Source: a virus
Lineage: Duplodnaviria; Caudoviricetes
Reading direction: 5' to 3' (one strand)
IMG/VR virus record: IMGVR_UViG_3300044641_000792
Location: 1-58,442 of that record
DNA: 58,442 bases
Part shown: piece by piece, positions 2,963 through 52,598 of the stretch
How the letters are laid out: each line of letters starts with the position of its first letter
Numbering within the stretch: position 1 is the first letter of the stretch
Position numbers and translations under genes: made by a program
The notes under the pieces: generated by a model
Databases searched by the model: none
What the model was told of the DNA's origin: nothing
The model's input: the letters and a program-made list of their open reading frames with translations, nothing else

Positions 2963-2965
2963 GAT

Positions 2966-4406: not shown

Positions 4407-4666
4407 GCCATCGGCCCTCTAGACATAAAGCCTTTGGTGGCCGCGCCAGCCCCACGCATTTTGATACCAGTTGTTTTAGTTGCTGGCTGAGGACGACGAT
4501 AAACATTGCCTACAGCCATATTGACTGTTCCGGCATCGCTGTGATCTGGGCCAGAACCTGGGTTCTCAGAAGCTTTAACAACTTTACCAGTCATTGTGTG
4601 CGGTGTGGCATAGACTTCAGCATCGCCAACTTCTTTACCCATCAATTTTTTGCTAAATGTAGCCAT
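4403..4666 (-). CDS. Small basic virion-module protein
   Basis: C-terminal RGAGAATKG motif, coupled ORF. Confidence 0.6.
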   Translation of the reverse strand: MATFSKKLMGKEVGDAEVYATPHTMTGKVVKASENPGSGPDHSDAGTVNMAVGNVYRRPQPATKTTGIKMRGAGAATKGFMSRGPMA

Positions 4667-4668
4667 GA

Positions 4669-4857
4669 TTAACCTCGTTTCTGTGCGGCAATCTTTGCCA
4701 AGTTACGACCCATAGTCCTCATGTCAGAGTTAGTTTTACCTTTACCCTTACCTGTTCCGCCCATCATTTCTTTCTGGGAGGGGCCGCTCGTAGGAAAAAC
4801 TTGAACATCAGTCTTACCTTTTTTAACGATTCCATCGGCTGATTTTGTATATGCCAT
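4669..4857 (-). CDS. Small basic protein (MAYTKSADGIVKKGKT...)
   Basis: Start reassigned to ATG at 4857 with GGAG RBS. Confidence 0.6.
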   Translation of the reverse strand: MAYTKSADGIVKKGKTDVQVFPTSGPSQKEMMGGTGKGKGKTNSDMRTMGRNLAKIAAQKRG

Positions 4858-30566: not shown

Positions 30567-31199
30567 TCATGCGCTCTTCTCCTTTATGTCGTAAAACCAA
30601 TCCTCCCCAGCCGACCATTTTCGGGTGCCGTCTACTGTCCACAAAGTCTTTGCCGCTTGAAAGTCAGGGAACTTTGTCTCAGCAGGAATTAAACTTTGGT
30701 CGTACCACAGGCACCGATTGTTTGGCTGACAAGCAAACTGCCCGTTATCAAGGGCAATCCAATTAAAAGACTTGTGCTCCTCGGCTTGCTCAGTAAACCC
30801 AGTGTCCAAGTCCATACCTTCGGCGCAGAAGTCCACAGTAAACAGGTAACGACCAAAGTGCCACTCCCTGTCTTTACCCAAGAACTTCACGCCCAAATTA
30901 CGCAAGCCAATCTTTTCAATGATTGTGAAGCGGTAGCCCATGCAGTCCCAAAGCTGAAGCGTATCGACTGGCAGATCGCCATGCTCCTCTTGCCACACAT
31001 AGGCGTGGATAGGTAGCTTGTCGTACAACGCGCCATAAGCTGGGAGCAAAGACTCAATGCGGAACACTTGCCCGCGCAAAGCTTTTAAACTAACCCAAAC
31101 CGCAGGCTCCAACTCGCCATGACCCTTTTGAAAGTTGTAAAGAAACTCTTTACGAACAAAACATTTAAGGGGCGGTAGTGATGCCACGATGTAGCTCAT
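30567..31199 (-). CDS. Conserved phage hypothetical protein
   Basis: GALYDKLPIHA, LQLWDC, YLFTVD, EHKSFN, NGQFACQPNNR. Confidence 0.7.
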   Translation of the reverse strand: MSYIVASLPPLKCFVRKEFLYNFQKGHGELEPAVWVSLKALRGQVFRIESLLPAYGALYDKLPIHAYVWQEEHGDLPVDTLQLWDCMGYRFTIIEKIGLRNLGVKFLGKDREWHFGRYLFTVDFCAEGMDLDTGFTEQAEEHKSFNWIALDNGQFACQPNNRCLWYDQSLIPAETKFPDFQAAKTLWTVDGTRKWSAGEDWFYDIKEKSA

Positions 31200-33029: not shown

Positions 33030-33057
33030 TTGCAAGTTACAATGTATCAGGTATAAT
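33030..33057 (+). promoter_or_regulatory. Sigma70 promoter TTGCAA-N16-TATAAT driving the repeat array and RAMP operon
   Basis: Perfect -10 at 33052..33057; predicted TSS ~33063. Confidence 0.75.
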
Positions 33058-33084
33058 CGGCACCAACCTAACTGGTTTTGATAC

Positions 33085-33433
33085 GGCGCGGTTCGGCTGG
33101 GTAACGTTCGGCTGGGTATGGCAGAGCAAGGACTGGTCTGGCATGGTTCGGCGTGGGAGGGCAAGGGCTGACAACAGCCGATTGAGCATTCTAAAGAGTG
33201 TTCCTTCGAGTGTGAGGCAAGGAAGGGAGCGGCGGGGATGGGCAGGGTCGGGCACGGAAAGGTGCGGCACGGAACTAGAAATAGTCGATAGGGTATTGGC
33301 AACAGTACCACTTCGAGTGTTATGGCATGACGAGGAGAGGCATGGAAAGGTCAGGTCAGGCGGGGACAGGCAAGGGCTAATGTAGCGGCTATCAGATTGG
33401 CAACAGTCTTATGGTCGATGCAAAGTGTGCATC
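33085..33433 (+). ncRNA. Array of three GG(Y/A)NN pentamer-repeat RNA units separated by conserved hairpins (candidate guide RNAs)
   Basis: Tracts 33085..33169 (17 pentamers), 33216..33275 (12) and 33324..33378 (11); 37 of 40 begin with GG; each tract is followed by two hairpins; shared linker CTTCGAGTGT. Confidence 0.8.
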
Positions 33434-33448
33434 AATCAAAGGAAAAAA

Positions 33449-34018
33449 ATGAAATCTATTAAAGTAAAAATCGCAGGATCATCCCCTCTTCTCATGCACT
33501 CTGATCGCTTTGCGAACCCGTTAGACCCACTAACCAAGGCTCACAAAGAGATGACTGGCAAGCGCAAGAAAACTGACGATGACTTTATCGCCATTGCCAA
33601 GAGTGAATTTATTGGTGGCTGTTACTGGAACGAAGACACCGGCTTCTTTATTCCTTCACAGAACCTGGACTCATGCCTGATCGCGGCGGCTAAGCTTCAG
33701 AAGCTTGGCGTTAAATTCAAGCAAGGCATAGTGGTATTAGAAGACGAGCTACCCCTAGACGGTTTTAAAAACATGACACCAGAGAAGCTTTGGGAAAACC
33801 CAAAGAACGTCGATGCCCGTGGCGTGAAGGTCGGCATGGCTAAGATCATGCGCTACCGACCCATCTTCCGCAATTGGTCACTGTCTGCCACGGTGATGGT
33901 GAATGAAGACGTAGTTAACCTCAATGAAGTTAAAAAGGCTATGGTTGATGCCGGTGATTTGATTGGCTTGGGTGACTACCGCCCCCGCTTTGGCCGTTTC
34001 AAGGTTGAGTTTGCATGA
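33449..34018 (+). CDS. Stand-alone Cas7/RAMP-like RNA-binding protein
   Basis: N-terminal IKVKIAGSSPLLMH, FFIPSQNLDSCL, RYRPIFRNWSL and C-terminal Gly-rich loop GDLIGLGDYRPRFGRFKV; AAAGGA RBS before ATG at 33449. Confidence 0.75.
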   Translation: MKSIKVKIAGSSPLLMHSDRFANPLDPLTKAHKEMTGKRKKTDDDFIAIAKSEFIGGCYWNEDTGFFIPSQNLDSCLIAAAKLQKLGVKFKQGIVVLEDELPLDGFKNMTPEKLWENPKNVDARGVKVGMAKIMRYRPIFRNWSLSATVMVNEDVVNLNEVKKAMVDAGDLIGLGDYRPRFGRFKVEFA

Positions 34019-34494
34019 GCGATACAAAGCTTTATCCCGCTTGGAAACAGGCGGTCAGAACGCTACTGGACAACGGACTCACATACGGAAGTGTGCTCAA
34101 GCGTAGCTACATTTCCGAGCTATGCGAAGTTCCTAAGCCAGTCGATATTGATGATGTTCGCCGCTACGATTTAGAAGTGTTGCGGTGCATTACCGAGATC
34201 AAAGACATACTGCTTACAGCCCACTGTATGCTGATGGTCAGCGACCACGCGGGTAACTACATCATCATTGAACCTGAATCCCAAACTCAACACGCCGTTG
34301 ACATAGGGGTCAAAGCAATCAGCCGAGAGATGAAGCGCATGGCTATGGGCGTGAGCTTCACCAAGACTGAACTACTCACAGACGAAGGCCGAAAGAAAAA
34401 CGCAGATGCTCAGGCCAAGATCTCAAAGCTAGCCGGAATGCTAAGCATTGAGAAGCGCGAACTTCAACAAATAGCAGATAGGAGTCAGCCATGA
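34015..34494 (+). CDS. Hypothetical protein coupled to the RAMP gene (possible wHTH plus coiled coil)
   Basis: ATGA overlap with the RAMP stop; helical C-terminus. Confidence 0.65.
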   Translation: MSDTKLYPAWKQAVRTLLDNGLTYGSVLKRSYISELCEVPKPVDIDDVRRYDLEVLRCITEIKDILLTAHCMLMVSDHAGNYIIIEPESQTQHAVDIGVKAISREMKRMAMGVSFTKTELLTDEGRKKNADAQAKISKLAGMLSIEKRELQQIADRSQP

Positions 34495-35387
34495 AATTCA
34501 CAAACAAGTTCAACTTACCGCAGACATTTGTCAATGTCATTCACCGCCCGACCTACTCTAAAGGTAAGGCGCACATCTCTGCCACAGAGATCATCAACTC
34601 ACCCCGTATCGTTCAGCTTAAGAAGAAATACTGGGACGAGATAGAACAAGACGCAAGCGAGATGGTCTGGTCACTGTTCGGCTCTGCCGTCCACAATATT
34701 CTTGAACATGGTAAAGGCGACAACCACGTAGTCGAAGAGCGACTGCACCTAGAGTTTGAGGGATGGCGTATCTCAGGTGCTATTGACCTACAAGAAGTAG
34801 AACCCAATGGCACGATCACCATCTCAGATTACAAAGTCACAGGTGCATGGGCAGTGATGAATGAGAAGGATGACTGGCACCGCCAACTGAATATCTATGC
34901 GTGGATGGTAGAGAAGGTTAAGAAGGTACCCGTTGGGAAGCTTCAGATTATTGCCATCATTCGTGACTGGTCTGCCCGCGATGCTCAGACCAAAGAGAAC
35001 TACCCGAACTCGCCAGTCGCGACCATTGACATTCCCCTTTGGTCATTTGAAGAGCGCGAGAAGTTTATGACCAAGCGCATCTACGAACACGGAACCGCCC
35101 TCTTTGAGATGGAGACTGACGGCGACCTGCCTGACTGCACCGCCGAAGAGATGTGGGAAAAGAAAACTAGCTACGCCTTGAAGAAGGATGGCAACGTCAG
35201 AGCCAAGAGTGTTCACGAGACACAAGAGGCGGCAGAAGAAGCCTTAGTCAAAGCCCTCGGCACGGCTAAGAAGAACGAAGGATTCTCTATTGAGATCCGT
35301 CAGGGTGAGAGAACACGTTGCAAAAGCTACTGCCAAGTTGCGCCGTTCTGTAACCAATACCAAAACTATATGAAGGAAATGCCATGA
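34491..35387 (+). CDS. PD-(D/E)XK exonuclease (Cas4-like/RecB family)
   Basis: ISATEI, FGSAVHNILE, ISGAIDL, ISDYKVT, QLNIY; C-terminal C...CKSYC.....C. Confidence 0.8.
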   Translation: MKFTNKFNLPQTFVNVIHRPTYSKGKAHISATEIINSPRIVQLKKKYWDEIEQDASEMVWSLFGSAVHNILEHGKGDNHVVEERLHLEFEGWRISGAIDLQEVEPNGTITISDYKVTGAWAVMNEKDDWHRQLNIYAWMVEKVKKVPVGKLQIIAIIRDWSARDAQTKENYPNSPVATIDIPLWSFEEREKFMTKRIYEHGTALFEMETDGDLPDCTAEEMWEKKTSYALKKDGNVRAKSVHETQEAAEEALVKALGTAKKNEGFSIEIRQGERTRCKSYCQVAPFCNQYQNYMKEMP

Positions 35388-38364: not shown

Positions 38365-41300
38365 TTAAACCTGAGCCATCTTCCGTAGTTCTTTTACATT
38401 GATTGTCTTGAGGATCTCGCGCTCAGTTTCCCGTAGCTCTTTGATTGCCTCTTGCTTTTCAGCAGAACTCATCTCAGAAGATGGCCGGTTTGTAATGTAG
38501 GTAATAGCCTTGCGAACCTTGCCAAGCTGATCGGTTATCTTATTGACACCCTTAGCCAGTCCATACCTAGCCATCTTCTCCTCTGAAGATAGGTACTCCT
38601 CTATCTTCTCTGGGCTTGTGGTCTTCAGGTCTGACACCGTGGCGGCGACCTTGGCTACTTCATCCCTCAGAACATAGAAGTCATTCTTAAGTCCTGACTC
38701 ATACTCTCTGGAGATAAAGCCGCTGGTTCCTGGCAACGTGGCCATAGCATCACGTAAGCTCAGGCTTGGGCGGTCAACGTTGGGGTCGCTATGTAGGACA
38801 GGGTTAGTCATGTAGATAACCAAGCCGCCAGCAGAGCCAAACATACCGCGTATCAAGTGATCGACCGCGATAGGTGACACCAGACCAGTCGCGCCAAGTA
38901 GCTTTGCAATCTCAGAAGTTGTATCGCTAAACTGCTGGGCGGTTTCTTTCTTCTTCTCAAACTCACCAATCAGTGGGCGACCAGAGAAGAAATTGTAGTT
39001 AATACCCACCTCAACCAACGGCTTGATAGCTTGTGGCACAACAGTCGGGCTAAGCAGGGCGGAACCCAGCGCGGCTTTGATAGAGTCCCTGAACTTACGG
39101 CCATCCTCATAACCTTGGTCTGTGAGCAACAGGTATGTGTGCTCAGTGATAATTTTAGGCAGAGTAAATAGATCAGCACGTAAAGGTATGCTTAAACCAC
39201 CGGTGCCTGGAATCATCAGCAGGCGATCACGCACCACGGCAGGCTTGTTCTCGTAGTCCTCATCGTCCCCGTTCAACATTACATACAAGAGGGATAGAGT
39301 CATTACTGAGCCAGTCGTGGCGATCAGTGTCTTGAAAGCATTCTCTCTCTCGGTAGGAGAGGAGCCAACGCCGGTGATAGTTTTATACGCCACGTTCTGG
39401 GCGGCAAGGTAGGCATTAAAGAATGGAATGACCTGACCAGCCAAGGCTAGCGTCTTACTGCTACCCTTGCGACGTACATTCCAAATCTCAAACGCTTTCT
39501 CTAAAGCTTCAGCTTCGCTCAGACCTTGATCTATAGAAGCTGTATACACCGCCTGACGGACGGCATTGTCAGATGCCATAGCAATGTGGGAGAGAAGATC
39601 TTTTGTTCTACCCAACACACCAGGCTTAGCTTTAAAGCCCGCATAGACCTCCGCATCAAGGCGAACCATCTCGGCAGTGAAGTCTCTTACACCCACGACA
39701 CCATACTTCTTAAGATTCTCATGCGTCTGGCTTTGCTTAAATAGCGTAGTAAGAAACTCTTTAGCGGCGCGAGCGGGGATGGTCAGTGCGTACCTAGGCT
39801 TAAGCCCAGAGGTAAACATGGCGGCAAAGGAGTCCTGCGGTAACTGGGACACAGAGAACAATGGGTACAAAACCACAGTCTGACGAAGCCAGTTAGACAA
39901 CTCAGACATCCACTTCCACGATGGAATGACGATGGCTTCTAAGCCATTGAACGCTTCCATGTACATGGGGTCTTCCATGCTGTACTCAACTTGCTTGCCG
40001 TTCTTCCAGACCTTAGCAACGTTTACTCTCTCAACCTTCGGTGTTAAGAGATACTTTGTGTTGCCGTCCTCATCTTCAAAGTCAACAACCTCAAAGCCGT
40101 CAAGCTCTTTGTTCGCAATACCGGCTTGCTTGAGTGAGTCAAATGGTTTGGCACCGCTAGAAATCTTGCCAACTATTGGCTGTTTGTTTGCGTCTACACC
40201 AGTGATTCCTAGGTTCTCTTTGTTCTTTACGTCTTTAATCTTTATGGCGGCACCGACCTCTTCGGCGGCATCAGCCAATGCGACGGCAGACTTGTTCCGC
40301 ACGGCACGGTTCACTGAGTATTGAGTCCAGCGAATCATGTTGTCAAAGATGTCATTGACAGGCTTGTCTGATCCTTTGAGCTTTTTCTCTTTAGCCTGAA
40401 CCATCAGACCACGGATGTATTCCTTCGGGCCTTTGCCTTCTTCAAGTTGCTCCTCGCGGAAGAACGGAACGTAGTCGGCGTTGTCCAGTAAGAACTCGGC
40501 CTCTTCTTCCGTCCACAGTCCAGAGTCAACCAGAATCCTAGAGGTGTTTGCACGAATAGAATTCCAAGTCTTTACCGCCGCATTCAACTCAGGCATCACA
40601 GCGAACAAGGACATACCTGCGGCAATCTGATCCTCAACACTTAGATCGCTTTCGCCGTTGATCTTATGAATAAACTTCTTTTCTTTTAGGCGGTTAGAAG
40701 CTTTCTCACTCAGGGCGCTAGATGCTACTGGCTTGCTTGAACGAATGGAGGCGGCCTCGGCCTTCATCGCGGCGACCTCGCGGTCAATCTGATTGTTGAA
40801 CTCAACCATTGACTTAAGACGCTTAGCTTCAAAAGCCGTGTGAGCAATGACCTCTGCCTCTGCCTTTGTCTTGCCGTACTTCTCTGCTATGACATCAATG
40901 TCTTTGGATAGCTGGATGAAGTTGGCATCGTCATTAAAAGCTTCCCACTTATGAAGCTCTCGGTTGTACTTTAAATTTCCCAAAGTAATGAACAAGCTAG
41001 CAAGCGCATCGGCGTGGACAGTCTGACTGATACTTGTATTAAGCAGAGTACCAATCTTATCTTTGGCGGCCATCGTGGAATCATAGATGGCACGGCGGAT
41101 CCGGTTGTTCAGGGCGGCATCGCTAGAGAACGCCATGGTCTGAACCTTATCCAAGAAAGTGGTGACAGACTTACCCGCCTCTTCAGCTGTAAGCTTTGGA
41201 TTGTCTTTGACATTATCCCAAGACTGACGAACCTTAGCCCTGTAGCTGGGCTCAGGCGGCTTAACCTTGCGACCCAGTTGAGCCATTATGCTGTCTGCAT

Positions 41301-44300
41301 CTTTAGATGGCGTACCCTCTTGATTGGCAAACAACTCCTGAACTTTTTTAGAGAACAAACTTTGTTGTACGCCAGTGGTAGCCTTCTTTTTACCAGGCCC
41401 AAAAGAGTAGCCCTGCCTCTCTATGCCCTCAGAAATCTCTTCAATATCCACAGAGAGAAGCTCATCTGTCGTCCTGACTAAGCGGTCTAATGCACTCTCG
41501 TAAGGAGGAGCAACGCCCAGAATCTTACGAATCAATTCAATAAGCTTACTGAAAACAGTACCTTCTCCGACCTTGATGCCGGACATATACTTTTGCATCC
41601 GCTCATCAGTAATACCCCAAGAGACTAACTCATCATCATTTCTAAAGGCATTGTTTTTTCTGTCGTAATAATCTTTAGCAATACCAGACAGGGTGCCATT
41701 CTTAAAATCCTTTTGGTAATGTGCAATGACTTGATTAAACAAAAGCCTAATCTCTTTGACCATCGGATCACTGGCCTGTAAGAAGTGCAACTGACCACGG
41801 GTGGCTACGTGCAACAACTCATGCAAGATTGTGCGGTACTCAACTCCAGGAGGATAGCCGTCTTGGTTTTTAAATACCGTTGGGCCATTTAAAACAATAC
41901 GGATAGTTGTATCTTCGCCCTTAGATTTATCACCCCAGATAAAACTAGCCACACCTCTGGCATTTCTCATTGGCAGTGCGGGTGTATTTGGGCGGGTATC
42001 TCCAGTCAAAACATCAAACCCAAAGCGAACCCCCTTGGCTTCCATCTGTTTGATGCGGGCGTAAACCTTCTGAGCAAAGTATTTTGCTACAGCGTTAGGA
42101 GCATTGTCTATTGCCCACTTTGATACCTCAACCAAAGTCTTACCTTTGATTTGTTTGGCAATCTCTAAGTTTTCTTTGGTATTGTTAAAGCCTAGGGTTG
42201 AACCTTCTGCTGAGTATAGGAAGTCTTCCTTTGGTGCGTACTCTACATCTTTGGCAAGGATAAAGTTACCAACTTGAATTAACTCAGAAGCCTTTACCAC
42301 AGGCTCACCAGTTACGCGGTCGTAGAAGTAACCTCGTTGCGCAGGATTAACATTGACTTGTGTCCAAGCGGGGTCATTGCCTAAACGTTTAACTTCTGCA
42401 AAAGCTTGCTCCGGCGTAATAGGAACCCACGTTCCCTCTGCGGTTTGAAGTCGCTCTTTAACTGGGTTAATACCCATGTTCAAGCCTTTCTCCTGATCGC
42501 GAGGAGCAAAGAACACATCTTTAATGCGGGCTACGCTTGCGTAAGAGATAAGACTACCGGCAGATGAATACGCTTCGCCAGTCTTTGGATTGTTATTGGC
42601 TTTGCCCTCGTGGATGGATACCACGTTAGCCCCTGCTTCGCGAGCGGGCAAGTCCATACGCAAGCCTACTCGCGTACCCTCTTTAATAGGAGCATTCAAC
42701 ACGCCTCTACCACCACCGCGTAGTGCGGCTTCCATCTGCTCATTACTAGCAGGAGGCTGTAGCTTTTGTATGTCTACGTCTTTGATGGGCGTGTAGTAAT
42801 CAACGTACTTTGTAAACTCCTCACGGCTCATTGTTCCTTCTTGGAACTTTTTACCTGCGGCTTGAACCTGTAGGTTTCTACCCTTGCTGGGTTTGATTCC
42901 AGTTGTATCTAGCTCTGGTGGCTTTACCTTTGCGGATGTAGTAAAGATGTCCTTCTGCCCACGGGCGGCGGCCTCGTCAGCCTCACGGTCACTGCCGGTT
43001 AGGGTAAAGTCAGCCTTAGCCGCATCAGCTTTGGCTTTGTCTTCCTTGGCCTTCTCTTCATCTTTGCGTTGCTTCTCCGCTTTGGCGGCGGCCTCTTGTT
43101 TGTCAATGATGTCTTGAGGCGTAGGACTGGTTAGCCCTTCTGCCGGAGTAGCATCTTTTCCTTCGCGTTCTGGAGTAACTCTAGTCTCGCTTTCGGCGGG
43201 AGCTTCCTCAGTTGCTCTATCAATTTCTGCTTGTTCATCGGTTGCTTTTTGGATTTCAAGATTGACCTCCTTTAATGTTAAAAACTCACGGATAGCTTTC
43301 TCTAGCTCATCCACGGTGTTATCTAAATTTTGGATAGCCATAGTGGTATCAAAGGTGTAGTAGTTCTGTCTACGTACCTTCTCTTTGATGTACTCGACCG
43401 ACTCTTGCTCATCATAGAACTCTGACATTGGCCTCATACGTGGAGGCAAGAAGTCATCAAGCTTGCTATCGGATACTAAGGAGGACATATCTGTGCCGCC
43501 TACTCCGCCCTTCTTTTGCAATGACTTGAACATTAAGCCTGGCCCAATGTCTTCTACTTCTTCGGGCGTAAGTTTTCCGCGCAGGGCAGTCCACAAGCTC
43601 AGACCCTTGTCCTTGCCTTGAGTAAAGCGCCTACGTGACTTCTCCGCTCTATCCAAATCTTTCTGTAAGTCTGTAATTTCCTCAAGCTGGGGAGCGGGCT
43701 CGCCCACAATAGGTGTAGCTTCAACAAAAGGAGGAGCCTCTTCTAGGATAGCAGGCGTAATGGGAGGAGTTATATCCTCTTCAGTCTGAGTCTCCAGCTT
43801 GGCGGCGGCAATAGCATCTTCTTCAGGCTTGACCTCTTGCTCATAGATCTTCATAAACCCCTGCTCAAGAATAGCAATGGTTTCTTCTAAATCGGCCTTC
43901 TCTTTAACAATCCTAGCTCTGGCTTCCAAGATAACTGGATTGGTGTTTGCGTCAACACGTTGCTCCAAGTCTTTTATCTGTGTGTTGTACTGCTTAAGCT
44001 TAGCCTTCTCAGCATCAAGGCGGTTCTTCTCCACGATGGCGGCCAAAGGATCTACTGGAGCGCCAAGCAAAGAACGCTCATAACCAACCTCGGCAGGCTT
44101 CATCTCAGAGATGGGACTAACGGCCTCTTTCTCAACAGGCTGAGGAGCATACTGATCTTCAAACTTCTTTTTATCGTATGCGTCCAACTCTTCTTGAGTG
44201 TTAGCCACAGAGCCATCAGGCAAGATCCTAGGAGTAAAAGGCTCTGACATTCCAATTGCCAAAGGCTCTGCTGGGGCAACTGGGGCAACCGGAGCAGGCT

Positions 44301-45306
44301 CTGGGGCAACAGGTGCTTGCGCCGCAGGAGGCGTTACAACTGGAGGAGGTGTAGGTCTGCCGGACAGGGCGGCAATAGGAGCGGCACCTAATGCACCAGC
44401 CAATGCTTCACCCGTTGCGGCACCAGCCACACCAGAGAACGTATCCACATCAAACCCACCACGTTGGAGCGCAATGTTCTGAGCCAGTCTTTCTTGGCCG
44501 CCTTGTACACCTTCTGGGATAGATTCTTTTACGACAGTCTCGCCAACTCGTCTAGCCAAACCAGGAGCCGCGCCAGCACGACCTGCGGGTGTTAAGAACT
44601 TCTCAACACCAGAGGTACCAGCAAGGCGGCCTAACGCTCCGCCAAGAGCAATCTGTTCAAAGTTAGTGCCAAAGTAATTCTGTGCAGAGTCAGCCTTCTG
44701 CTTTGCAATATCAGGGCTAGTACCGGCATCAACCTCTGCCTGATACACGCCATCATAGATAGAGCCCTTTACCGCACCTAGACCTTGGGCAGTAGCAATA
44801 CTCGCAGGAGCCTTCTCTGCAACGGCGGCAATCGCTCTAACGGCACCAGGGCCTAAGCGCATAGCGGCGGCAACAGGGGCGGCAAACATTGCGGGCAAGT
44901 AAGGAACAAACGATCCAATTGCTTGTGCGGCAGTTTGTAGAGGAGCTTCCAGTACGTTTTGTCCAGCCGCCTTAACCTCTTGCAAGAAGCTTCCGCTCTG
45001 CTCTGCGGCCTTCATGCGCTCGGCTTGACGTTGCATCTCAGCCTGACGCTCAGGGGTCATGCCCGTTTGCAAACCTTGTATGCCTTGAGATAGCTTGGAG
45101 GATGCAATATTCTCTGCACCAGCTACATCAGTTAAAGCTTTAGTGCTACCTAAAGCGCCAATGCCAAATGATGCGCCAAGATCCCCCAAGGAGAATCCTG
45201 CTGGGCCAGTAGGCTTTTTACCAAACAGGTCAGCGCTAAGATCTCGACCTTTAGATTTATCCCCTTCGGGGCCAAATAGCTCCGAACTTAGATCGCGTCC
45301 AGCCAT
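38365..45306 (-). CDS. Large polyvalent/ejection protein (zincin HExxH domain, C-terminal LPD38-like region)
   Basis: 2313 aa; RTILHELLHVAT; C-terminal IPFFNAY...PLVEVGINYNFFSGRPL...SPIAVDHLIRG. Confidence 0.7.
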   Translation of the reverse strand: MAGRDLSSELFGPEGDKSKGRDLSADLFGKKPTGPAGFSLGDLGASFGIGALGSTKALTDVAGAENIASSKLSQGIQGLQTGMTPERQAEMQRQAERMKAAEQSGSFLQEVKAAGQNVLEAPLQTAAQAIGSFVPYLPAMFAAPVAAAMRLGPGAVRAIAAVAEKAPASIATAQGLGAVKGSIYDGVYQAEVDAGTSPDIAKQKADSAQNYFGTNFEQIALGGALGRLAGTSGVEKFLTPAGRAGAAPGLARRVGETVVKESIPEGVQGGQERLAQNIALQRGGFDVDTFSGVAGAATGEALAGALGAAPIAALSGRPTPPPVVTPPAAQAPVAPEPAPVAPVAPAEPLAIGMSEPFTPRILPDGSVANTQEELDAYDKKKFEDQYAPQPVEKEAVSPISEMKPAEVGYERSLLGAPVDPLAAIVEKNRLDAEKAKLKQYNTQIKDLEQRVDANTNPVILEARARIVKEKADLEETIAILEQGFMKIYEQEVKPEEDAIAAAKLETQTEEDITPPITPAILEEAPPFVEATPIVGEPAPQLEEITDLQKDLDRAEKSRRRFTQGKDKGLSLWTALRGKLTPEEVEDIGPGLMFKSLQKKGGVGGTDMSSLVSDSKLDDFLPPRMRPMSEFYDEQESVEYIKEKVRRQNYYTFDTTMAIQNLDNTVDELEKAIREFLTLKEVNLEIQKATDEQAEIDRATEEAPAESETRVTPEREGKDATPAEGLTSPTPQDIIDKQEAAAKAEKQRKDEEKAKEDKAKADAAKADFTLTGSDREADEAAARGQKDIFTTSAKVKPPELDTTGIKPSKGRNLQVQAAGKKFQEGTMSREEFTKYVDYYTPIKDVDIQKLQPPASNEQMEAALRGGGRGVLNAPIKEGTRVGLRMDLPAREAGANVVSIHEGKANNNPKTGEAYSSAGSLISYASVARIKDVFFAPRDQEKGLNMGINPVKERLQTAEGTWVPITPEQAFAEVKRLGNDPAWTQVNVNPAQRGYFYDRVTGEPVVKASELIQVGNFILAKDVEYAPKEDFLYSAEGSTLGFNNTKENLEIAKQIKGKTLVEVSKWAIDNAPNAVAKYFAQKVYARIKQMEAKGVRFGFDVLTGDTRPNTPALPMRNARGVASFIWGDKSKGEDTTIRIVLNGPTVFKNQDGYPPGVEYRTILHELLHVATRGQLHFLQASDPMVKEIRLLFNQVIAHYQKDFKNGTLSGIAKDYYDRKNNAFRNDDELVSWGITDERMQKYMSGIKVGEGTVFSKLIELIRKILGVAPPYESALDRLVRTTDELLSVDIEEISEGIERQGYSFGPGKKKATTGVQQSLFSKKVQELFANQEGTPSKDADSIMAQLGRKVKPPEPSYRAKVRQSWDNVKDNPKLTAEEAGKSVTTFLDKVQTMAFSSDAALNNRIRRAIYDSTMAAKDKIGTLLNTSISQTVHADALASLFITLGNLKYNRELHKWEAFNDDANFIQLSKDIDVIAEKYGKTKAEAEVIAHTAFEAKRLKSMVEFNNQIDREVAAMKAEAASIRSSKPVASSALSEKASNRLKEKKFIHKINGESDLSVEDQIAAGMSLFAVMPELNAAVKTWNSIRANTSRILVDSGLWTEEEAEFLLDNADYVPFFREEQLEEGKGPKEYIRGLMVQAKEKKLKGSDKPVNDIFDNMIRWTQYSVNRAVRNKSAVALADAAEEVGAAIKIKDVKNKENLGITGVDANKQPIVGKISSGAKPFDSLKQAGIANKELDGFEVVDFEDEDGNTKYLLTPKVERVNVAKVWKNGKQVEYSMEDPMYMEAFNGLEAIVIPSWKWMSELSNWLRQTVVLYPLFSVSQLPQDSFAAMFTSGLKPRYALTIPARAAKEFLTTLFKQSQTHENLKKYGVVGVRDFTAEMVRLDAEVYAGFKAKPGVLGRTKDLLSHIAMASDNAVRQAVYTASIDQGLSEAEALEKAFEIWNVRRKGSSKTLALAGQVIPFFNAYLAAQNVAYKTITGVGSSPTERENAFKTLIATTGSVMTLSLLYVMLNGDDEDYENKPAVVRDRLLMIPGTGGLSIPLRADLFTLPKIITEHTYLLLTDQGYEDGRKFRDSIKAALGSALLSPTVVPQAIKPLVEVGINYNFFSGRPLIGEFEKKKETAQQFSDTTSEIAKLLGATGLVSPIAVDHLIRGMFGSAGGLVIYMTNPVLHSDPNVDRPSLSLRDAMATLPGTSGFISREYESGLKNDFYVLRDEVAKVAATVSDLKTTSPEKIEEYLSSEEKMARYGLAKGVNKITDQLGKVRKAITYITNRPSSEMSSAEKQEAIKELRETEREILKTINVKELRKMAQV

Positions 45307-48989: not shown

Positions 48990-51900
48990 TTAGCCTCTTG
49001 ATTGAATAATTTGCATTAAGTCTTCTTGCGTCATGTCATTGCCGCTTGAAGAAAATATTTGTTGCAACAACGCAGATATGTCATTTTCGCTTTCTTTTGG
49101 CGCTTGTGCAACAGAAATAGGTTGAGGAGCTGGTTCCGCTCCTGGCCTAGTAACACTTAGCTCCTGATATGGAGTAATCATCAACTCTCCAGTTGGAGAA
49201 AGTTGTTGCTTCTGCCCGCCAAAGTCTTTGCCGTAATAGAACACATTAGCCAAAGGAGCCACCTCAGAAATCAACCCGCCCGTAGTTGGCATCTGAGTTG
49301 GTGTTGTTGGTGTTTTCTTGGTTGGCGTTTTAGTAACGGGTGTAGTTGGTGTTACTGGTGTAGTTGTAATTGGCGTAGTAGGCGTAATTGGTGTGACTGG
49401 TGTAGTCGGAATTATAGGAGTTACAGGTGTAATTGGAGTGGTTGGCGTAGTAGGAGTAATTGGGGTTGTAGGTATTGTTGGCGTAGTTGGTGTTGTAGGC
49501 GTTGTAGGCGTAGTCGGCGTTGTAGGTGTAGTCGGTGTAGTGGGCGCAGTAGGAGTAGTAGGGGTGGTAGGAGTAGTGGGGATGGTCGTAGGCGTAGTAG
49601 GTGTAGTAGGGGTTGTAGGAGTTGTAGGCGTAACTGGCGTAGTTGGTGTAATAGGCCGAGTAGGTGTAGTTGGGATCGTAGGCGTTGTGGCTACAGTTAA
49701 ATTTGGTGGAGTTGTAGTTTTGGGCGTAACTGTAGGCAATGTAGTAACAGTTGGAGTTGGACTAACTGTAGGCGTAGTTGTTTTAGATAAATCGATAGTA
49801 GGCTGGAGTGCGCCAGCAGGTACAGCCTCAAGAATACTATTTGGATCAAAAGATATTGTTAAATCTGGGTTCAATATGTAATCACCAAGATCAATACCGC
49901 CCTTATCGGTAGTTCTTAATCCAATGCTTGCAATCTGGTTTAAATCAAAACCATCCAAACCACCCATGTCATCTCCGGTGCGACCGCTACCTATCAAATC
50001 TAATAGCGCATCAATATTGGACGTAGTAGTTGTATTTGTAAATCCTCTATTTAATAATTCATTTAACGTTGCAGCGGTAGCCGCTGTATTAAATGTTGTT
50101 GATGCACCAGTTCTTCCTTCATTGCTATATGAAGGAGTGTATTCAACACCAGTTATCTTGGTATATTCTTCATTTAAGTTTTTATCATTTGGATTTTTAG
50201 CTAACTCCGTTTCTAAATCTCTTACATAAAGATCTTTAGGATAAACACCAGTTGGATAAATATTAGAATATTCATCATAACCACCACCTCTAATAATAGT
50301 ATTTATATTAGGTTTGTTTGTAGTGGTAGCTGGATTTACTTCTTTGGCTGTAGTATTAATTGTTGTAACAGGTTTAGCCTGAGTATCGCCAGCACCCGGC
50401 ACATTAGCTAAACGAGCATTAATTTCATCAAGATTTGAAACGCCATAATATCTATTGACCATATCAAGATATGCGGCTGGATTAGACTTATAAAAAGCTC
50501 TTTCAAATTGAGATTGGTTAATTGCGGTAGGAGATTTGGTGTATGGATCAGTGTAGACAAGATTGCCGCCACGATCACGAGATACAGGAACCTCTATATA
50601 TTTCAATGTATTGGGATCCATAACGCTAATGCGTGTAGGCATACCACTGGAATCAACAGATATTGATCCTGCTGACAATGGCTTATTAAGGCCACCAGGC
50701 CCTGCTACTAAGTTATCATCAAACTCAACATCACTTATATCTGACCCAGTAGAAAGTGGTATATCTGTCGGTAAAGTACTTCCAGTTAAACTTGCAAGTA
50801 AACTATTAACATCATTAAATGTATTATCAGAACCAGTGATATTTGTAACATCAGATAACGTAGTTGAGCCTGGAGTATTAACTAAACCAGAGTTTTGCAA
50901 CTGAGTTACAACATTGTTATTTCTAGCTTTAGTATCAGCTATTGCATTATTTGCAGCGGCAATAGCACTGTTAATAACAATCTGATCTAAAGGTTTGCCA
51001 GAGACTACACCCGTTACGGCATTAGTAACTATTTTCTTTTGATTGGGGGTTAAGTCTCCAAACCCTTCAATGTTACCCAAGAGAGAATTAACCGCGCCGT
51101 TAACGCCACCGGTAGCCGCGCCTCTAAGCATGGCCCCGCCAATATCATCGCCCGAAAGAAGAGCGGTACCGCCTGCAACTGCCGCGTTTTGGAAAGAATT
51201 AGTTAGGGTTTTTGTAAGGTCGGTTGATAAGCCAAGGTCTTTAATAAAGGAAGCGCCATCCTTCATAAAGTCCATGCCAGGAATTTGTGCACCGGCAAAA
51301 CTAATTGCCGCGCCTTTAATTGCATCACCAATATCATTACCGCTCAAAACACTGATAGCCATGTTAGCCGCAATTTGTTGCGGTATAGACAAACCACCCG
51401 TTGCAATTGCAAGACCAATTTGTCCTATTGGCCCCAGATCCTGCATCAAGATTGCAAGGTCATTAGATGTTGCTTGTGTCGTATAGAAAATAGGAGAGCC
51501 ATCTGCACCAAACTGCACTCGGTAGCCGGTGTTACCCTTACCCTCAAACGTACCGCCAAAAGCATTGCCTGTCTGACGTTCTCCGTATGTACTAGCAACT
51601 TCTTGCCCAGTTAGCTTATTACCAAATACTTCTTGCTTGCCTACGGGGGCAACATAGACAGTTTGGTCACTTCCGCTTTCACCGCCATAAACAGTTTCAG
51701 TTTTAACCAACTTAGGGTCAACTGGCTTGCCATCTTGGTCTACGTAACCAACAATCTTTTGAGTGTAGATGGGGCCATTTTCATCATATCCTACGATATC
51801 ACCAGACTCAAAAATAGGTTGCACGGCAGCATCAACAGTTTTAGTTACCTTACCAAACTGGTTAATGTCAGTAACACCTGTCTCGGCAATAATCTTAGCC

Positions 51901-52598
51901 ATATCCTCTGCGTTCTTTTGAGCAGAGCCTTTTCCCTCACCCTTCCACTTATCAGTAGTTCCTTGTGAAAGAATCTGTGCAGTCAAATATTGCGTAGCCG
52001 CTTTTGTAGAGCCTTTTAGCGCTTCAGACATCTGGTCGCTACTTACATTAGCCTCTTGCATTGTCTTAGCAATTAATGCGGCATCAGCATTAGGATTGGC
52101 ATTAAACCAACCCAAGATGTCTGCACTTGTTACTTTATTAGCGGGTGCTGGAGTAGCCACTGGCGCGGCTGGCAATGAAGCAATACCCGTGGGCGCGGCG
52201 GCTACCGGAGGTGGCGTGTAAACAGGCTCCGGCGGAGGTGGCGGCGGTGGAGGAGGGGGTGGAGGTGGCGCAACTTCAGCCGCACTTGGTGAAGAAGCCG
52301 CACGGCCTTCATTAACTCCGTAATTGGTGTAATGGAAATCAGCAAACTCCTGTGGAGTCATGCCGTAGCTATTGTCCTGATATGCGTTGGCTACATCTGG
52401 GTTAGCGTTAAAGTATGTAGGTTCTGGAGCAAGCGCGGCTTCATACCTAGCTGTAACATCAGCAACGTTAGTGCCTGTTGCTGCCGCCATTTGCGAAGGC
52501 GAAACTCCCGCCTCTTGCATTGTCTGGGCAATCAGTTCGTCACTGGCTCCGGGATTAGCGTTTAACCAGCCTAGAATATCTGCGTTAGTTACTGCCAT
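48990..52598 (-). CDS. Large virion protein with poly-Pro and (PT/TTP)n linkers
   Basis: 1202 aa; two DILGW.NANP repeats; ~150-aa Pro/Thr repeat. Confidence 0.7.
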   Translation of the reverse strand: MAVTNADILGWLNANPGASDELIAQTMQEAGVSPSQMAAATGTNVADVTARYEAALAPEPTYFNANPDVANAYQDNSYGMTPQEFADFHYTNYGVNEGRAASSPSAAEVAPPPPPPPPPPPPPEPVYTPPPVAAAPTGIASLPAAPVATPAPANKVTSADILGWFNANPNADAALIAKTMQEANVSSDQMSEALKGSTKAATQYLTAQILSQGTTDKWKGEGKGSAQKNAEDMAKIIAETGVTDINQFGKVTKTVDAAVQPIFESGDIVGYDENGPIYTQKIVGYVDQDGKPVDPKLVKTETVYGGESGSDQTVYVAPVGKQEVFGNKLTGQEVASTYGERQTGNAFGGTFEGKGNTGYRVQFGADGSPIFYTTQATSNDLAILMQDLGPIGQIGLAIATGGLSIPQQIAANMAISVLSGNDIGDAIKGAAISFAGAQIPGMDFMKDGASFIKDLGLSTDLTKTLTNSFQNAAVAGGTALLSGDDIGGAMLRGAATGGVNGAVNSLLGNIEGFGDLTPNQKKIVTNAVTGVVSGKPLDQIVINSAIAAANNAIADTKARNNNVVTQLQNSGLVNTPGSTTLSDVTNITGSDNTFNDVNSLLASLTGSTLPTDIPLSTGSDISDVEFDDNLVAGPGGLNKPLSAGSISVDSSGMPTRISVMDPNTLKYIEVPVSRDRGGNLVYTDPYTKSPTAINQSQFERAFYKSNPAAYLDMVNRYYGVSNLDEINARLANVPGAGDTQAKPVTTINTTAKEVNPATTTNKPNINTIIRGGGYDEYSNIYPTGVYPKDLYVRDLETELAKNPNDKNLNEEYTKITGVEYTPSYSNEGRTGASTTFNTAATAATLNELLNRGFTNTTTTSNIDALLDLIGSGRTGDDMGGLDGFDLNQIASIGLRTTDKGGIDLGDYILNPDLTISFDPNSILEAVPAGALQPTIDLSKTTTPTVSPTPTVTTLPTVTPKTTTPPNLTVATTPTIPTTPTRPITPTTPVTPTTPTTPTTPTTPTTIPTTPTTPTTPTAPTTPTTPTTPTTPTTPTTPTTPTIPTTPITPTTPTTPITPVTPIIPTTPVTPITPTTPITTTPVTPTTPVTKTPTKKTPTTPTQMPTTGGLISEVAPLANVFYYGKDFGGQKQQLSPTGELMITPYQELSVTRPGAEPAPQPISVAQAPKESENDISALLQQIFSSSGNDMTQEDLMQIIQSRG
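49300..49790. repeat. Degenerate 9-bp tandem repeat encoding TTP/PT
   Basis: (GTAGGCGTT/GTAGTTGGT)n-like units inside the 1202-aa CDS. Confidence 0.8.

What the first reader, a model, noticed from the sequence alone, without database searches (positions are those of the whole stretch)
33030..34494. Candidate non-CRISPR RNA-guided system: GG(Y/A)NN pentamer-repeat RNA array plus stand-alone Cas7/RAMP protein
Seen: promoter TTGCAA-N16-TATAAT, then three tracts with strict 5-nt periodicity. Tract 1 (33085..33169): GGCGC GGTTC GGCTG GGTAA CGTTC GGCTG GGTAT GGCAG AGCAA GGACT GGTCT GGCAT GGTTC GGCGT GGGAG GGCAA GGGCT. Tract 2 (33216..33275): GGCAA GGAAG GGAGC GGCGG GGATG GGCAG GGTCG GGCAC GGAAA GGTGC GGCAC GGAAC. 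Tract 3 (33324..33378): GGCAT GACGA GGAGA GGCAT GGAAA GGTCA GGTCA GGCGG GGACA GGCAA GGGCT. The GG is near-invariant (37/40) while the last two bases vary freely, unlike a slippage microsatellite. Directly downstream is a 189-aa protein with RAMP hallmarks (N-terminal strand plus SPLLMH, IP motif, C-terminal Gly-rich GLGDYRPRFGRF loop). Known: Cas7-type RAMPs polymerise on RNA with fixed nucleotide periodicity. Inference: each protomer grips a GG(Y) triplet and displays the NN dinucleotide, so each tract is a programmable guide with a non-contiguous code, plausibly aimed at competing phages or host genes. No CRISPR repeats, cas1/2/3/5/6 or large subunit are present. As I recall, this matches recently reported phage RAMP 'VIPR'-type GGY/NN systems; that link needs checking, not assuming.
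Basis: partly seen in the sequence, partly recalled or inferred. Interest (0 to 1): 0.97.

Follow-up and report, generated by a model that had tools for sequence, protein, structure and literature searches.

The report
Phage VIPR RNA-guided silencing locus
This lake-water phage carries a VIPR system, a recently described phage relative of CRISPR, and two of its three guide RNAs appear to be aimed at the DNA-replication genes of an unrelated rival phage.

Summary
The window has three plus-strand tracts of 17, 12 and 11 five-base units, and 37 of 40 units start with GG. Each tract is followed by a structured tail.

Next come a 189-aa protein and a 159-aa protein. The 189-aa protein matches the solved SUSP1 Vipr protein over its full length (E 7e-48). 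The 159-aa protein is homologous to the gene that follows vipr in other VIPR phages.

All 37 relatives found in IMG/VR carry such arrays beside vipr, with different guide dinucleotides.

Under the published one-base-skip rule, guide 3 matches a primase/helicase Walker-B motif at 21 of 22 positions. Guide 2 matches the start of a 118-aa replication-operon gene at 23 of 24 and 21 of 24. Both sites lie on the same two related ~55 kb phage contigs, in codon phase, and there is no self-match. Guide 1 has no convincing target.

This is a new member of a kind first described in 2026 preprints, not a new kind. One local twist is that the third base of the unit is C, T or A, not only a pyrimidine. Expression, RNA binding and silencing are inferred, not shown.

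The parts
33030..33057 (+). Sigma-70-like promoter candidate (TTGCAA, 16-base spacer, TATAAT). It would drive the array and, by inference, vipr, vap and the recombination genes after them.
   Evidence: matches 10 of 12. It is a consensus match only, with 4 sites found against 2.7 expected in shuffles. A strict regular expression finds a similar site upstream of the first called tract in 5 of 36 relatives. No terminator-like site lies on the + strand between it and vipr.
33085..33169 (+). vrRNA1 repeat tract: 17 five-base units, 15 beginning with GG. Homologous guides in L017 and L006 begin at unit 3. The last two units (GGCAA GGGCT) are conserved next to the tail.
   Evidence: No convincing target was found.
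33170..33215 (+). vrRNA1 3' tail: an outer stem that encloses a hairpin.
   Evidence: folding energy -18.3 kcal/mol, z -2.1; the consensus structure of 22 tails of this class has 15 pairs, 5 of them with compensatory double changes.
33216..33275 (+). vrRNA2 repeat tract: 12 units, all beginning with GG. Guide dinucleotides: AA AG GC GG TG AG CG AC AA GC AC AC.
   Evidence: With a one-base skip it matches 23 of 24 at G004:8905-8939 and 21 of 24 at G001:13824-13858. None of 300 shuffled guides reaches these scores.
33276..33323 (+). vrRNA2 3' tail, of the same structural class as tail 1.
   Evidence: -18.2 kcal/mol, z -4.2, 0 of 200 shuffles fold as well. Covariation.
33324..33378 (+). vrRNA3 repeat tract: 11 units, 10 beginning with GG. 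Guide dinucleotides: AT GA GA AT AA CA CA GG CA AA CT.
   Evidence: It matches 21 of 22 in the primase gene of G001 and of G004. None of 300 shuffled guides reaches this score.
33379..33435 (+). vrRNA3 3' tail: a second tail class with two hairpins, running up to the ribosome-binding site of vipr.
   Evidence: -23.0 kcal/mol, z -3.1. The same tail class stands last before vipr in many relatives.
33449..34018 (+). vipr: a 189-aa stand-alone RAMP (Cas7-like) protein.
   Evidence: PDB 36pp_D, SUSP1 Vipr, E 7.1e-48; phrog_4652, E 6e-69; the model (pLDDT 79) finds Cas7/Csm3 folds first. H17, K33, R137, D176 and R178 align with SUSP1's RNA- and DNA-contact residues and are invariant in 17 clade members.
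34015..34494 (+). vap1-like accessory gene (159 aa). Its start overlaps the vipr stop (ATGA).
   Evidence: Homologous to the ORF after vipr in Pseudomonas phage Medea1 (E 4e-15) and in the SUSP1-type phage VpaE1 (E 3e-6). phrog_5926. Present directly after vipr in 35 of 37 IMG/VR relatives. Its fold is not identified.

Best explanation
This is a type II-like VIPR locus of an uncultured lake-water tailed phage.

**Layout.** A promoter at about 33030 transcribes three vrRNAs. Each is a run of GG(C/T/A)NN units capped by a structured 3' tail. The vipr gene and a vap1-like gene follow, at the head of the phage's rightward recombination operon (exonuclease, Erf, SSB).

**Mechanism, by analogy with the SUSP1 system.** Vipr protomers polymerise along each vrRNA, one per unit. 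They bury the GG and the third base and present the two variable bases. The filament then pairs with double-stranded DNA, reading two bases and skipping one, and blocks transcription there.

**Predicted targets.**
- Guide 3 reads codon positions 1-2 of the helicase Walker-B motif (IEEMKQHGHN) in the primase/helicase gene.
- Guide 2 reads codons 4-15 of a 118-aa gene that lies between the SSB and DNA polymerase genes.
- Both sites are in one unrelated ~55 kb phage lineage (records G001 and G004). The system would therefore shut down a competitor's replication during co-infection.
- Guide 1 has an unknown target.

**Shown here:** the sequence anatomy, the homology, the conservation and covariation, and the target matches.

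**Inferred:** transcription, processing, RNP assembly, DNA binding, silencing and the ecological role.
For: **Protein**
- It aligns over its full length with the solved SUSP1 Vipr, at E 7.1e-48.
- Its model shows a RAMP fold, with Cas7 and Csm3 chains as top hits.
- SUSP1's contact residues for G1 and G2 (H17, D177, R138) and for the skipped base (K33) are kept. W178 is replaced by Tyr.

**RNA**
- The five-base GG periodicity is unique in the window.
- All 37 IMG/VR relatives have 1-7 such tracts beside vipr.
- The tails show compensatory covariation in 5 of 15 pairs across 22 tails.
- Over 76 pairs of homologous guides, mismatch rates at unit positions 1 to 5 are 0.013, 0.104, 0.307, 0.061 and 0.100. 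The two guide bases are thus conserved while the third base drifts, as expected if NN reads a target.

**Accessory gene and synteny**
- The vap1-like gene is homologous to the post-vipr gene of Medea1 and VpaE1.
- It follows vipr in 35 of 37 relatives.

**Targets**
- The guide 3 pattern has 19 exact hits in IMG/VR. Of these, 18 lie in one motif of an ~820-aa primase (phrog_1156; Pfam PriCT_2 plus DUF5906), with the skipped base on the wobble position.
- A relaxed 20-position guide 2 pattern has only 2 hits in IMG/VR, and both are on contigs already hit by guide 3.
- Guide 2 scores 23 of 24 and 21 of 24; guide 3 scores 21 of 22. None of 300 shuffled guides reaches these scores, and skips of 0, 2 or 3 bases fall to background.
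- Guides from relatives hit the same replication operon in codon phase: L009 at 26 of 32, and L029 at 21 of 24 with its first 9 units 18 of 18.
- G001 and G004 have the window's GC content, 0.47.

**Self-avoidance**
- There is no self-match above background.
- The window has no homologue of the targeted primase.
Against: **No functional evidence.**
- The RNA contigs of two freshwater metatranscriptomes cover only part of vap (34063-34372), not the array. Such libraries can also hold DNA.
- The promoter is a consensus match, and my strict pattern found it conserved in only 5 of 36 relatives.

**Target evidence has limits.**
- Guide 1, the longest, has no credible target.
- G001 and G004 were found by searching with the guides, so the shuffle control is not a test over the whole collection.
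- The size of IMG/VR in bases is not given by the tool, so the chance expectation is my estimate.
- At the published 80% threshold, 7 of 73 clade guides hit G001 against 5 of 73 shuffled ones. Only the top matches are informative.
- Guide 3's motif is so conserved that it also occurs in phages of 64-66% GC, so that guide alone does not name a target lineage.

**Deviations from the published system.**
- 12 of 40 units break the published GGY rule at the third base (9 A, 3 G). Four of the five residues named for SUSP1's pyrimidine pocket differ here.
- The vap fold was not identified.

**Ecology is unknown.** The host is not known, and co-infection with the target phage is not shown.
Confidence: 0.9

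Rival explanations
1. The locus is a genuine VIPR system, but the predicted targets are coincidental. Its real targets would be something not in the collections, such as a satellite, a prophage or a host gene, as is evidently true of guide 1.
For: - Guide 1 found nothing credible in IMG/VR, the metagenome contigs or 404 genomes.
- Guide 3 reads a very conserved protein motif that occurs in phages of quite different GC content.
- The 80% criterion gives nearly as many hits for shuffled guides as for real ones.
- In the published systems most targets were satellites or prophage regulators, not replication genes of full-size phages.
Against: - Two independent guides converge on the same 2 contigs out of 2.9 million.
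- Their scores are far above the shuffles, and only with a one-base skip.
- All four guide families that hit the G001/G004 replication operon put the skipped base on the wobble position.
- The window and G001/G004 have matching GC content.
Confidence: 0.15
2. The locus is a decaying or inactive VIPR remnant. Units that do not begin with GG, and third bases that are A or G, would stop Vipr assembling on the RNA, so the tracts would no longer guide anything.
For: - 3 of 40 units lack GG, and 12 of 40 have a purine at position 3.
- The published SUSP1 pocket is said to exclude purines sterically.
- The pocket residues differ here: E71Q, M72N, C173I and V175L.
Against: - A at position 3 is a property of the whole clade. 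Over 901 units it is 23% A but only 1% G, which indicates selection for 'not G' rather than decay.
- The vipr ORF is intact, and the residues aligned with SUSP1's GG-contact residues H17, R138 and D177 are invariant in 17 members.
- The guide bases are conserved between homologous guides.
- The paper notes frequent internal degeneracy in working vrRNAs and related consensus forms such as NNNGG.
- The degenerate unit 2 of guide 3 still matches its target.
Confidence: 0.05
3. The GG-periodic tracts are not guides. They would instead be a G-rich structured leader, for example two-tetrad G-quadruplexes or a protein-binding site, that regulates the downstream operon.
For: - GG every five bases could in principle form G-quadruplex-like structures.
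- The tracts lie in the 5' leader of an operon, and no terminator separates them from vipr.
Against: - The architecture (units plus tail) and the neighbouring Vipr homologue match a system in which such RNAs were shown to co-purify with Vipr and to guide silencing.
- A leader would not need hypervariable NN that are conserved between orthologous copies.
- A leader would not match foreign coding sequences at 21-23 of 22-24 positions under one specific skip rule.
Confidence: 0.02

Closest known systems
SUSP1 (Felixounavirus) type II VIPR system; bioRxiv 10.64898/2026.04.26.720920 and 10.64898/2026.04.26.720927; PDB 36pp
   Same: - The Vipr protein is homologous over its full length: E 7e-48, and about 41% identity to felixounavirus copies.
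- The vrRNAs are five-base GG-periodic units followed by a structured 3' tail.
- A small vap1-like gene follows vipr directly.
- The system is phage-encoded and has no CRISPR array.
- Targets fit the one-base-skip rule, with the skipped base on the codon wobble position.
   Different: - The third base of the unit is C, T or A here (45%, 32% and 23% over 901 clade units). In the SUSP1-type phage VpaE1 it is T 91%, C 9% and A 0%.
- All three vrRNAs lie upstream of vipr behind one promoter candidate. SUSP1 has one upstream and three downstream; VpaE1 has three and two.
- The tail is a stem enclosing a hairpin, and no pseudoknot was tested.
- The predicted targets are replication genes of a full-size phage, not a satellite.
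- The host is an unknown freshwater bacterium, not E. coli.
Pseudomonas VIPR clade (the paper's P. fulva prophage system); here phage Medea1 (MW862109) and LESphi2 (OQ594955)
   Same: - These are the closest cultured relatives of the Vipr protein, at 59% and 48% identity.
- They have the same Q71/N72 pocket residues.
- The unit next to the tail (GGGCT) and the start of the tail are similar.
- The vap1-like gene is homologous, at E 4e-15.
   Different: - LESphi2's third base is mostly C (79%, with A 5%).
- Medea1 has a single vrRNA, placed downstream of vap.
- The published targets of the P. fulva clade are mainly prophage lysis-lysogeny regulators.
Class 1 CRISPR Cas7 backbone filaments (type III Csm3/Cmr4, type VII Cas7)
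   Same: - It has the RAMP/RRM fold with a glycine-rich loop and a thumb. Foldseek's top hits are 8z4j_F, 8yhe_B and 6ifl_F, at E 4-5e-5.
- It would polymerise periodically on a guide RNA, an inference from the SUSP1 structures.
   Different: - There is no CRISPR repeat-spacer array.
- Of 9 neighbouring ORFs scanned against PHROGs, only the PD-(D/E)XK exonuclease next to vap gave a weak Cas-associated match, and it is best read as a phage recombination gene.
- The periodicity is five bases, with three bases hidden, against six with one flipped.
- The target pairing is gapped.
- Sequence identity to Cas7 chains is only 8-16%.

Membership tests
VIPR system (Viral Interference Programmable Repeat) | A Vipr protein: a minimal stand-alone RAMP with an RRM core, a glycine-rich loop and a thumb, homologous to characterised Vipr proteins. 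| tested here: met
   phmmer E 7.1e-48 to PDB 36pp_D (SUSP1 Vipr), residues 1-188 against 1-189; the AF2 model (pLDDT 79) finds Cas7/Csm3 first; the contact residues H17, K33, R137, D176 and R178 are conserved.
VIPR system (Viral Interference Programmable Repeat) | vrRNA genes beside vipr: tandem five-base GGY/NN units (9-16 in the paper; related consensus forms are allowed) with hypervariable NN. | tested here: met
   17, 12 and 11 units, 37 of 40 beginning with GG. NN differ among the 37 relatives. The third base is C, T or A, a departure from strict GGY. The paper's Methods list NNNGG-type variants, but fig. S17 could not be seen.
VIPR system (Viral Interference Programmable Repeat) | A conserved, structured 3' tail that caps each repeat tract. 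| tested here: met
   tail classes are conserved across relatives; z-scores of -2.1 to -4.2; 5 of 15 pairs show compensatory changes across 22 tails. The pseudoknot reported for the SUSP1 clade was not tested.
VIPR system (Viral Interference Programmable Repeat) | A minimal locus: vipr plus one vap gene, with no CRISPR array and no other cas genes; mostly viral. | tested here: met
   (vap1-like gene). (no spaced repeats in 58 kb). (an IMG/VR virus record, 93% complete). (terminase related to aquatic phages). Cas genes were not searched for across the window; one search covered 9 neighbouring ORFs.
VIPR system (Viral Interference Programmable Repeat) | Guides match foreign DNA under the one-base-skip (NNx) rule, without self-targeting. 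| tested here: met
   Met for 2 of 3 guides; 23 of 24, 21 of 24 and 21 of 22; only skip 1 rises above background; 0 of 300 shuffles reach these scores. Self-matches: best 21 of 34, 16 of 24 and 15 of 22, equal to the shuffle level. Guide 1 has no target.
VIPR system (Viral Interference Programmable Repeat) | vrRNAs are expressed as ~100-nt RNAs, co-purify with Vipr, and direct transcriptional silencing. | not testable with these tools
   RNA-library contigs cover only part of vap. Nothing can be said about the array.
VIPR type II (SUSP1 and P. fulva clades, with vap1) | The Vipr protein falls in the type II clade of the authors' phylogeny. | tested here: inconclusive
   The best characterised relatives are type II members or their kin: SUSP1 (E 7e-48, about 41% identity to felixounavirus copies) and the Pseudomonas phages at 48-59%. 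No tree with the other six types was built, and the authors' reference set (data S4) is in closed supplements.
VIPR type II (SUSP1 and P. fulva clades, with vap1) | The accessory gene is vap1, a small predicted DNA-binding protein. | tested here: inconclusive
   Homologous to the post-vipr ORFs of VpaE1 (E 3e-6) and Medea1 (E 4e-15). That those ORFs are 'vap1' is inferred from their position, not read from an annotation. The model (pLDDT 80) has no significant fold match. Only hints of winged-helix proteins appear, at E about 1.
CRISPR-Cas (class 1) | A repeat-spacer array, adaptation genes (cas1, cas2) and a multi-subunit effector. | tested here: not met
   no spaced direct repeats; the flanking genes scanned (9 neighbouring ORFs, not the whole window) are an endonuclease, an exonuclease, Erf and an SSB. 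The only RAMP found is Vipr.

The most novel reading that the evidence does not exclude
The most novel reading the evidence allows has three parts.

1. **A distinct VIPR subtype.** This freshwater clade's scaffold would be GGH, with A accepted at the third base and only G excluded.
2. **A fast-changing guide repertoire.** Arrays range from 1 to 7 guides between otherwise syntenic phages. They would be aimed at the replication operon of one co-occurring rival phage lineage.
3. **A broad-range weapon that is hard to escape.** The guides read only codon positions 1-2 of conserved motifs such as a helicase Walker B box. Synonymous mutation could therefore not evade them.

The turnover of guides between close relatives would then point to a still unknown way of making new vrRNAs.
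Probability: 0.3. Interest if true: 0.6.

Novelty: new member of a known kind. Interest (0 to 1): 0.45.

Why it matters
VIPR is a very recent discovery: an RNA-guided DNA-binding system with a gapped code, proposed as an ancestor of the CRISPR RAMPs. This locus adds three things.

- **Reach.** VIPR is established in uncultured lake-water phages. I found 37 relatives in IMG/VR with conserved synteny and highly variable arrays.
- **Targets.** It offers natural guide-target pairs of a new type, the replication genes of a full-size competitor phage, including a catalytic motif read in codon phase. The published cases are satellites and prophage regulators.
- **The scaffold rule.** A relaxed third base gives a natural experiment on how Vipr recognises its scaffold.

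None of this changes the known principle. It widens the principle's range and supplies constructs that can be tested directly.

Tried and rejected
**Guide 1 target**
- The consensus pattern of units 3-16, relaxed where the homologous guides in L006 and L017 differ, gave 0 hits in viral contigs and 0 in metagenome contigs.
- Units 8-17 gave 0 hits.
- Units 1-10 gave 8 hits, all at one homologous site. I rejected them for four reasons:
  - The remaining units match only 4-6 of 14.
  - The real 727-aa ORF puts the skipped base on codon position 1.
  - The contigs have 34-40% GC.
  - The homologous guides begin at unit 3.
- Units 3-13 in metagenome contigs gave 2 hits. L087 is at chance beyond the forced part (20 of 34). 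L086 scores 26 of 34, is in codon phase and reads through an HEFHH motif. It is a weak lead only.
- There was no match with up to 3 mismatches in 3 MAGs that hold a Vipr relative, or in 401 genomes of the order of one of them.

**Guide 2.** The full 24-position pattern had 0 exact hits. Relaxing 4 positions found the two contigs.

**Pyrimidine pocket.** I tested whether the altered pocket residues explain the A at position 3. They do not in any simple way: LESphi2 shares Q71/N72 but uses mostly C. In guide 2, the guide's third base agrees with the target's skipped base at only 3 of 11 positions, by my own reading.

**Promoter.** My strict pattern found it conserved in only 5 of 36 relatives.

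**Databases with no useful match**
- Pfam has no family for Vipr or vap.
- Rfam has no family for the array (one chance-level match at E 0.8).
- The vap fold search gave nothing below E 0.1.
- A megablast of 24 kb of the window against cultured phages found no match.

**Expression.** RNA-library contigs (X22, X24) lie only on 34063-34372. There is no cover on the array, which proves nothing. In one independent DNA run the contigs stop at 33213 and resume at 33480. That may reflect array differences between strains or only assembly.

**Host.** Relatives occur on contigs binned with Rhodoferax, a betaproteobacterial MAG and a Cyanobium MAG. Binning of phage contigs is unreliable, so no host is claimed.

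- The supplements of all three papers were closed. Tables S1-S3, data S1-S4 and fig. S17 may already list this clade or a GGH-type consensus.
- Of 10.64898/2026.04.26.720920 I read the abstract, all of Results, Methods sections 18, 20, 26 and 27, and found passages.
- Of 10.64898/2026.04.26.720927 I read the abstract and sections 5-6.
- Of 10.64898/2026.10.15.759431 I read the abstract and section 17.


Full report
**Observation**

The three tracts read exactly as listed.
- 33085-33169 has 17 five-base units, 15 beginning with GG.
- 33216-33275 has 12 units, all beginning with GG.
- 33324-33378 has 11 units, 10 beginning with GG.

Windows of 50 bases with at least 7 of 10 in-phase GG occur nowhere else in the 58,442 bases, and the - strand never exceeds 5. 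One thousand shuffles of the same G-rich 294 bases reach at most 8 in-phase GG per 12 units, against 12 observed.

The third base of the 40 units is C 18, T 10, A 9 and G 3.

A promoter-like site matching 10 of 12 lies at 33030-33057. No terminator-like site stands on the + strand before vipr. Promoter-like matches are no more frequent here than in shuffles.

**The protein**

The 189-aa ORF (33449-34018) has no Pfam family. It matches PDB 36pp_D, 'SUSP1 Vipr protein', at E 7.1e-48 over its whole length, and phrog_4652 at E 6e-69.

A tblastn search finds it in 130 phage records, all below 60% identity. The best are Pseudomonas phage Medea1 at 59% and LESphi2 at 48%, followed by many felixounaviruses at about 41%.

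An AlphaFold2 model built on 17 clade sequences has pLDDT 79 and pTM 0.72. Foldseek finds type VII Cas7 and Csm3 chains first, at E 4e-5 to 1e-3 and TM about 0.5. That copy of the PDB ends on 8 April 2026 and does not return the Vipr entry.

The cryo-EM paper names the contact residues:
- H17 and D177 contact G1.
- R138 and W178 contact G2.
- E71, M72, C173, T175 and R179 form the pyrimidine pocket.
- K33 contacts the backbone beside the skipped base.

In the alignments, the window protein compares as follows:
- It keeps H17, K33, R (137), D (176) and R (178).
- It has Tyr in place of W178.
- It differs in the pocket: Q71, N72, I172 and L174.

All of these residues are invariant in the 17 clade members.

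**What VIPR is, from the papers**

The system consists of Vipr and vrRNAs of 9-16 YNNGG units followed by a conserved tail. The RNAs co-purify with Vipr. The NN dinucleotides pair with double-stranded DNA while every third target base is skipped. Binding represses transcription on either strand without a PAM.

Natural targets are satellites, prophage regulators and other VIPR systems. Seven types are defined, and type II (the SUSP1 and P. fulva clades) carries vap1. The third paper shows that the gapped code matches codon periodicity and so resists escape by mutation (abstract).

**Relatives**

The search for related loci returned 37 IMG/VR loci. Thirty-six are 75-93% identical in Vipr, and L041 is 37% identical.

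At a threshold of at least 7 units with at least 80% GG, all 37 have between 1 and 7 tracts.
- In the 36 close relatives the tracts lie on the vipr strand just upstream of the gene. L032 has three further tracts on the other strand.
- L041 has tracts on both sides of vipr.
- The SUSP1-type phage VpaE1 has 3 upstream and 2 downstream.
- LESphi2 has 3 upstream.
- Medea1 has one downstream, seen only at a looser threshold.
- The NN differ widely between loci.

Synteny is conserved. An endonuclease gene lies on the other strand, then the array, vipr and a 155-164-aa ORF, which is present in 35 of 37 loci. L010 ends too early to show it, and L041 lacks it. An exonuclease and Erf follow (exonuclease in 28, endonuclease in 20 and Erf in 24 of 43 loci searched).

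The 159-aa ORF of the window is homologous to the post-vipr ORF of Medea1 (E 4e-15) and of VpaE1 (E 3e-6). Its model shows a small helix-strand domain followed by long helices, and it has no significant fold match.

**RNA features**

Each tract is followed by a tail that folds better than shuffled sequence, with z-scores of -2.1, -4.2 and -3.1. For the tail class of guides 1 and 2, an alignment of 22 distinct tails gives a 15-pair structure in which 5 pairs show compensatory double changes. Guide 3 has a second tail class with two hairpins, which is typical of the last vrRNA before vipr.

The last unit (GGGCT, GGAAC and similar) and often the one before it (GGCAA or GGCAT) are conserved, and they behave as part of the handle.

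Over 901 units from 79 distinct tracts of the clade, the third base is C 45%, T 32%, A 23% and G 1%. In VpaE1 it is T 91% and C 9%. In L041 it is A 100%.

Between homologous guides (76 pairs, at least 80% identical over at least 8 units), mismatch rates at positions 1 to 5 are 0.013, 0.104, 0.307, 0.061 and 0.100. The pairs are not independent. Even so, the pattern is what the code predicts: the third base is free among non-G bases, and NN is held by the target.

**Targets**

There is no self-match above the shuffle level. The best scores are 21 of 34, 16 of 24 and 15 of 22.

*Guide 3.* Its one-base-skip pattern covers ten units, with one position relaxed to Y after the homologous guide in L006. 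It has 19 exact hits in IMG/VR.
- Eighteen of them lie on the sense strand of one motif, IEEMKQHGHN(R/K)(Y/F)D. It sits in the helicase part (Pfam DUF5906) of a primase-helicase whose complete copies are about 810-920 aa, and the skipped base falls on the wobble position.
- That this motif is the Walker B box is my reading of its hhhhEE form.

*Guide 2.* The full pattern has no exact hit.
- With up to 3 mismatches it hits 2 of the 5 whole records tested.
- A 20-position relaxed pattern hits only 2 contigs in the collection, and both were already hit by guide 3.

*The target phages.* The two records are G001 (54.8 kb, 96% complete) and G004 (41.8 kb).
- They are related to each other, at 66-88% nucleotide identity over about 25 kb.
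- Their GC is 0.47, like the window.
- They carry a replication module of DUF2800 exonuclease, Enc34-type SSB, DNA polymerase A, primase and SNF2 helicase. Its primase is distantly like those of Curvibacter phage PCA1, Xylella phage Sano and Burkholderia phage BcepNazgul.
- The other three whole records hit by guide 3 have 64-66% GC and no guide 2 site.

*Where guide 2 binds.* It matches the antisense strand of codons 4-15 of a 118-aa ORF (phrog_13625, function unknown). That ORF lies between the SSB and polymerase genes, and the skipped base is again on the wobble position.

*Controls.* None of 300 base-shuffled guides reaches the observed 23 of 24, 21 of 24 or 21 of 22; their maxima are 19 and 18. 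Skips of 0, 2 or 3 bases give 15-18. The two records were found with these guides, so this control shows specificity within them and is not a test over the whole collection. The convergence of two guides on the same 2 of 2.9 million contigs is the independent point.

*Guides of relatives.* These point to the same operon.
- L009, L007 and L020 match a second site in the 118-aa ORF, at 26 of 32.
- L029 and L032 match a 129-aa ORF at the head of the operon, at 21 of 24, with the first nine units 18 of 18.
- L006 matches the primase site.
- All are in codon phase.

*The window versus its targets.* The window has no homologue of the primase. It shares only one gene with G001, a ferredoxin-like moron at 83% amino-acid identity.

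*Guide 1.* No credible target was found; see Tried and rejected.

**Context and ecology**

The window is an IMG/VR virus record judged 93% complete. Its terminase is 53-56% identical to those of aquatic phages. Near-identical DNA is held by many lake-water metagenome runs. The host is unknown, and the MAG hints are weak.

RNA-library contigs touch only the vap gene.

**Verdict**

This is a VIPR locus, most like type II, in a freshwater phage clade. It is therefore a new member of a kind published as preprints in 2026, not a new system.

This analysis adds:
- the vap1-like gene;
- the tail structures;
- the clade-wide GGH scaffold;
- the conservation pattern of the guide bases;
- predicted natural targets for two of the three guides.

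Function remains inferred from the SUSP1 experiments.

Noticed in passing
L041 (IMGVR_UViG_3300001533_001096), 2760-4820: This is a distant Vipr relative, 37% identical. It is flanked by six very long arrays of 17-37 units, and the third base is A in all 157 units counted, so the unit is GGANN. The arrays lie both upstream and downstream of vipr. No vap1-like ORF follows directly. It may be another VIPR type.
   Followed up: partly
L032 (IMGVR_UViG_3300020047_003426), 1382-1743 on the - strand: Besides four tracts upstream of vipr, this relative has three GG-periodic tracts of 11-12 units on the opposite strand further upstream. It thus has arrays in both orientations.
   Followed up: no
window 49303-49704, inside the 1202-aa ORF at 48990-52598 (-): There are about 33 overlapping copies of a 9-base periodic repeat. 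I read this as a collagen-like Gly-X-Y stretch in a large structural protein, probably a tail fibre. That reading was not tested.
   Followed up: no
window 30570-31199 (-) and G001:52358-52987: A 210-aa ferredoxin-annotated moron (phrog_3704, E 2e-73) is the only gene shared between the VIPR phage and its predicted target phage G001. Identity is 83% in amino acids and 74% in nucleotides. This hints at a common gene pool or host.
   Followed up: partly
window 33213-33480: In an independent lake-water DNA run (X3), contigs that are at least 99% identical cover the flanks. They stop at 33213 and resume at 33480, which leaves guides 2 and 3 uncovered. This could reflect array differences between strains or only an assembly break at repeats.
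   Followed up: no
L029 (IMGVR_UViG_3300020042_008285) and G001 (IMGVR_UViG_3300020042_011315): A VIPR-carrying relative has a guide that matches G001 at 21 of 24. Its record name shares the numeric prefix of G001's record name.
   Followed up: no
window 38365-45306 (-): This is a single ORF of 2313 aa. It was not examined.
   Followed up: no
window 34491-35387 (+): The PD-(D/E)XK exonuclease directly after vap also matches a Cas4-type family: phrog_1706, 'CRISPR/Cas system associated', at E 3e-8. Its better match is phrog_2139, exonuclease. It is followed by Erf and an SSB, so it is best read as the phage's recombination nuclease. It is conserved next to vap in 28 of 43 loci searched.
   Followed up: partly
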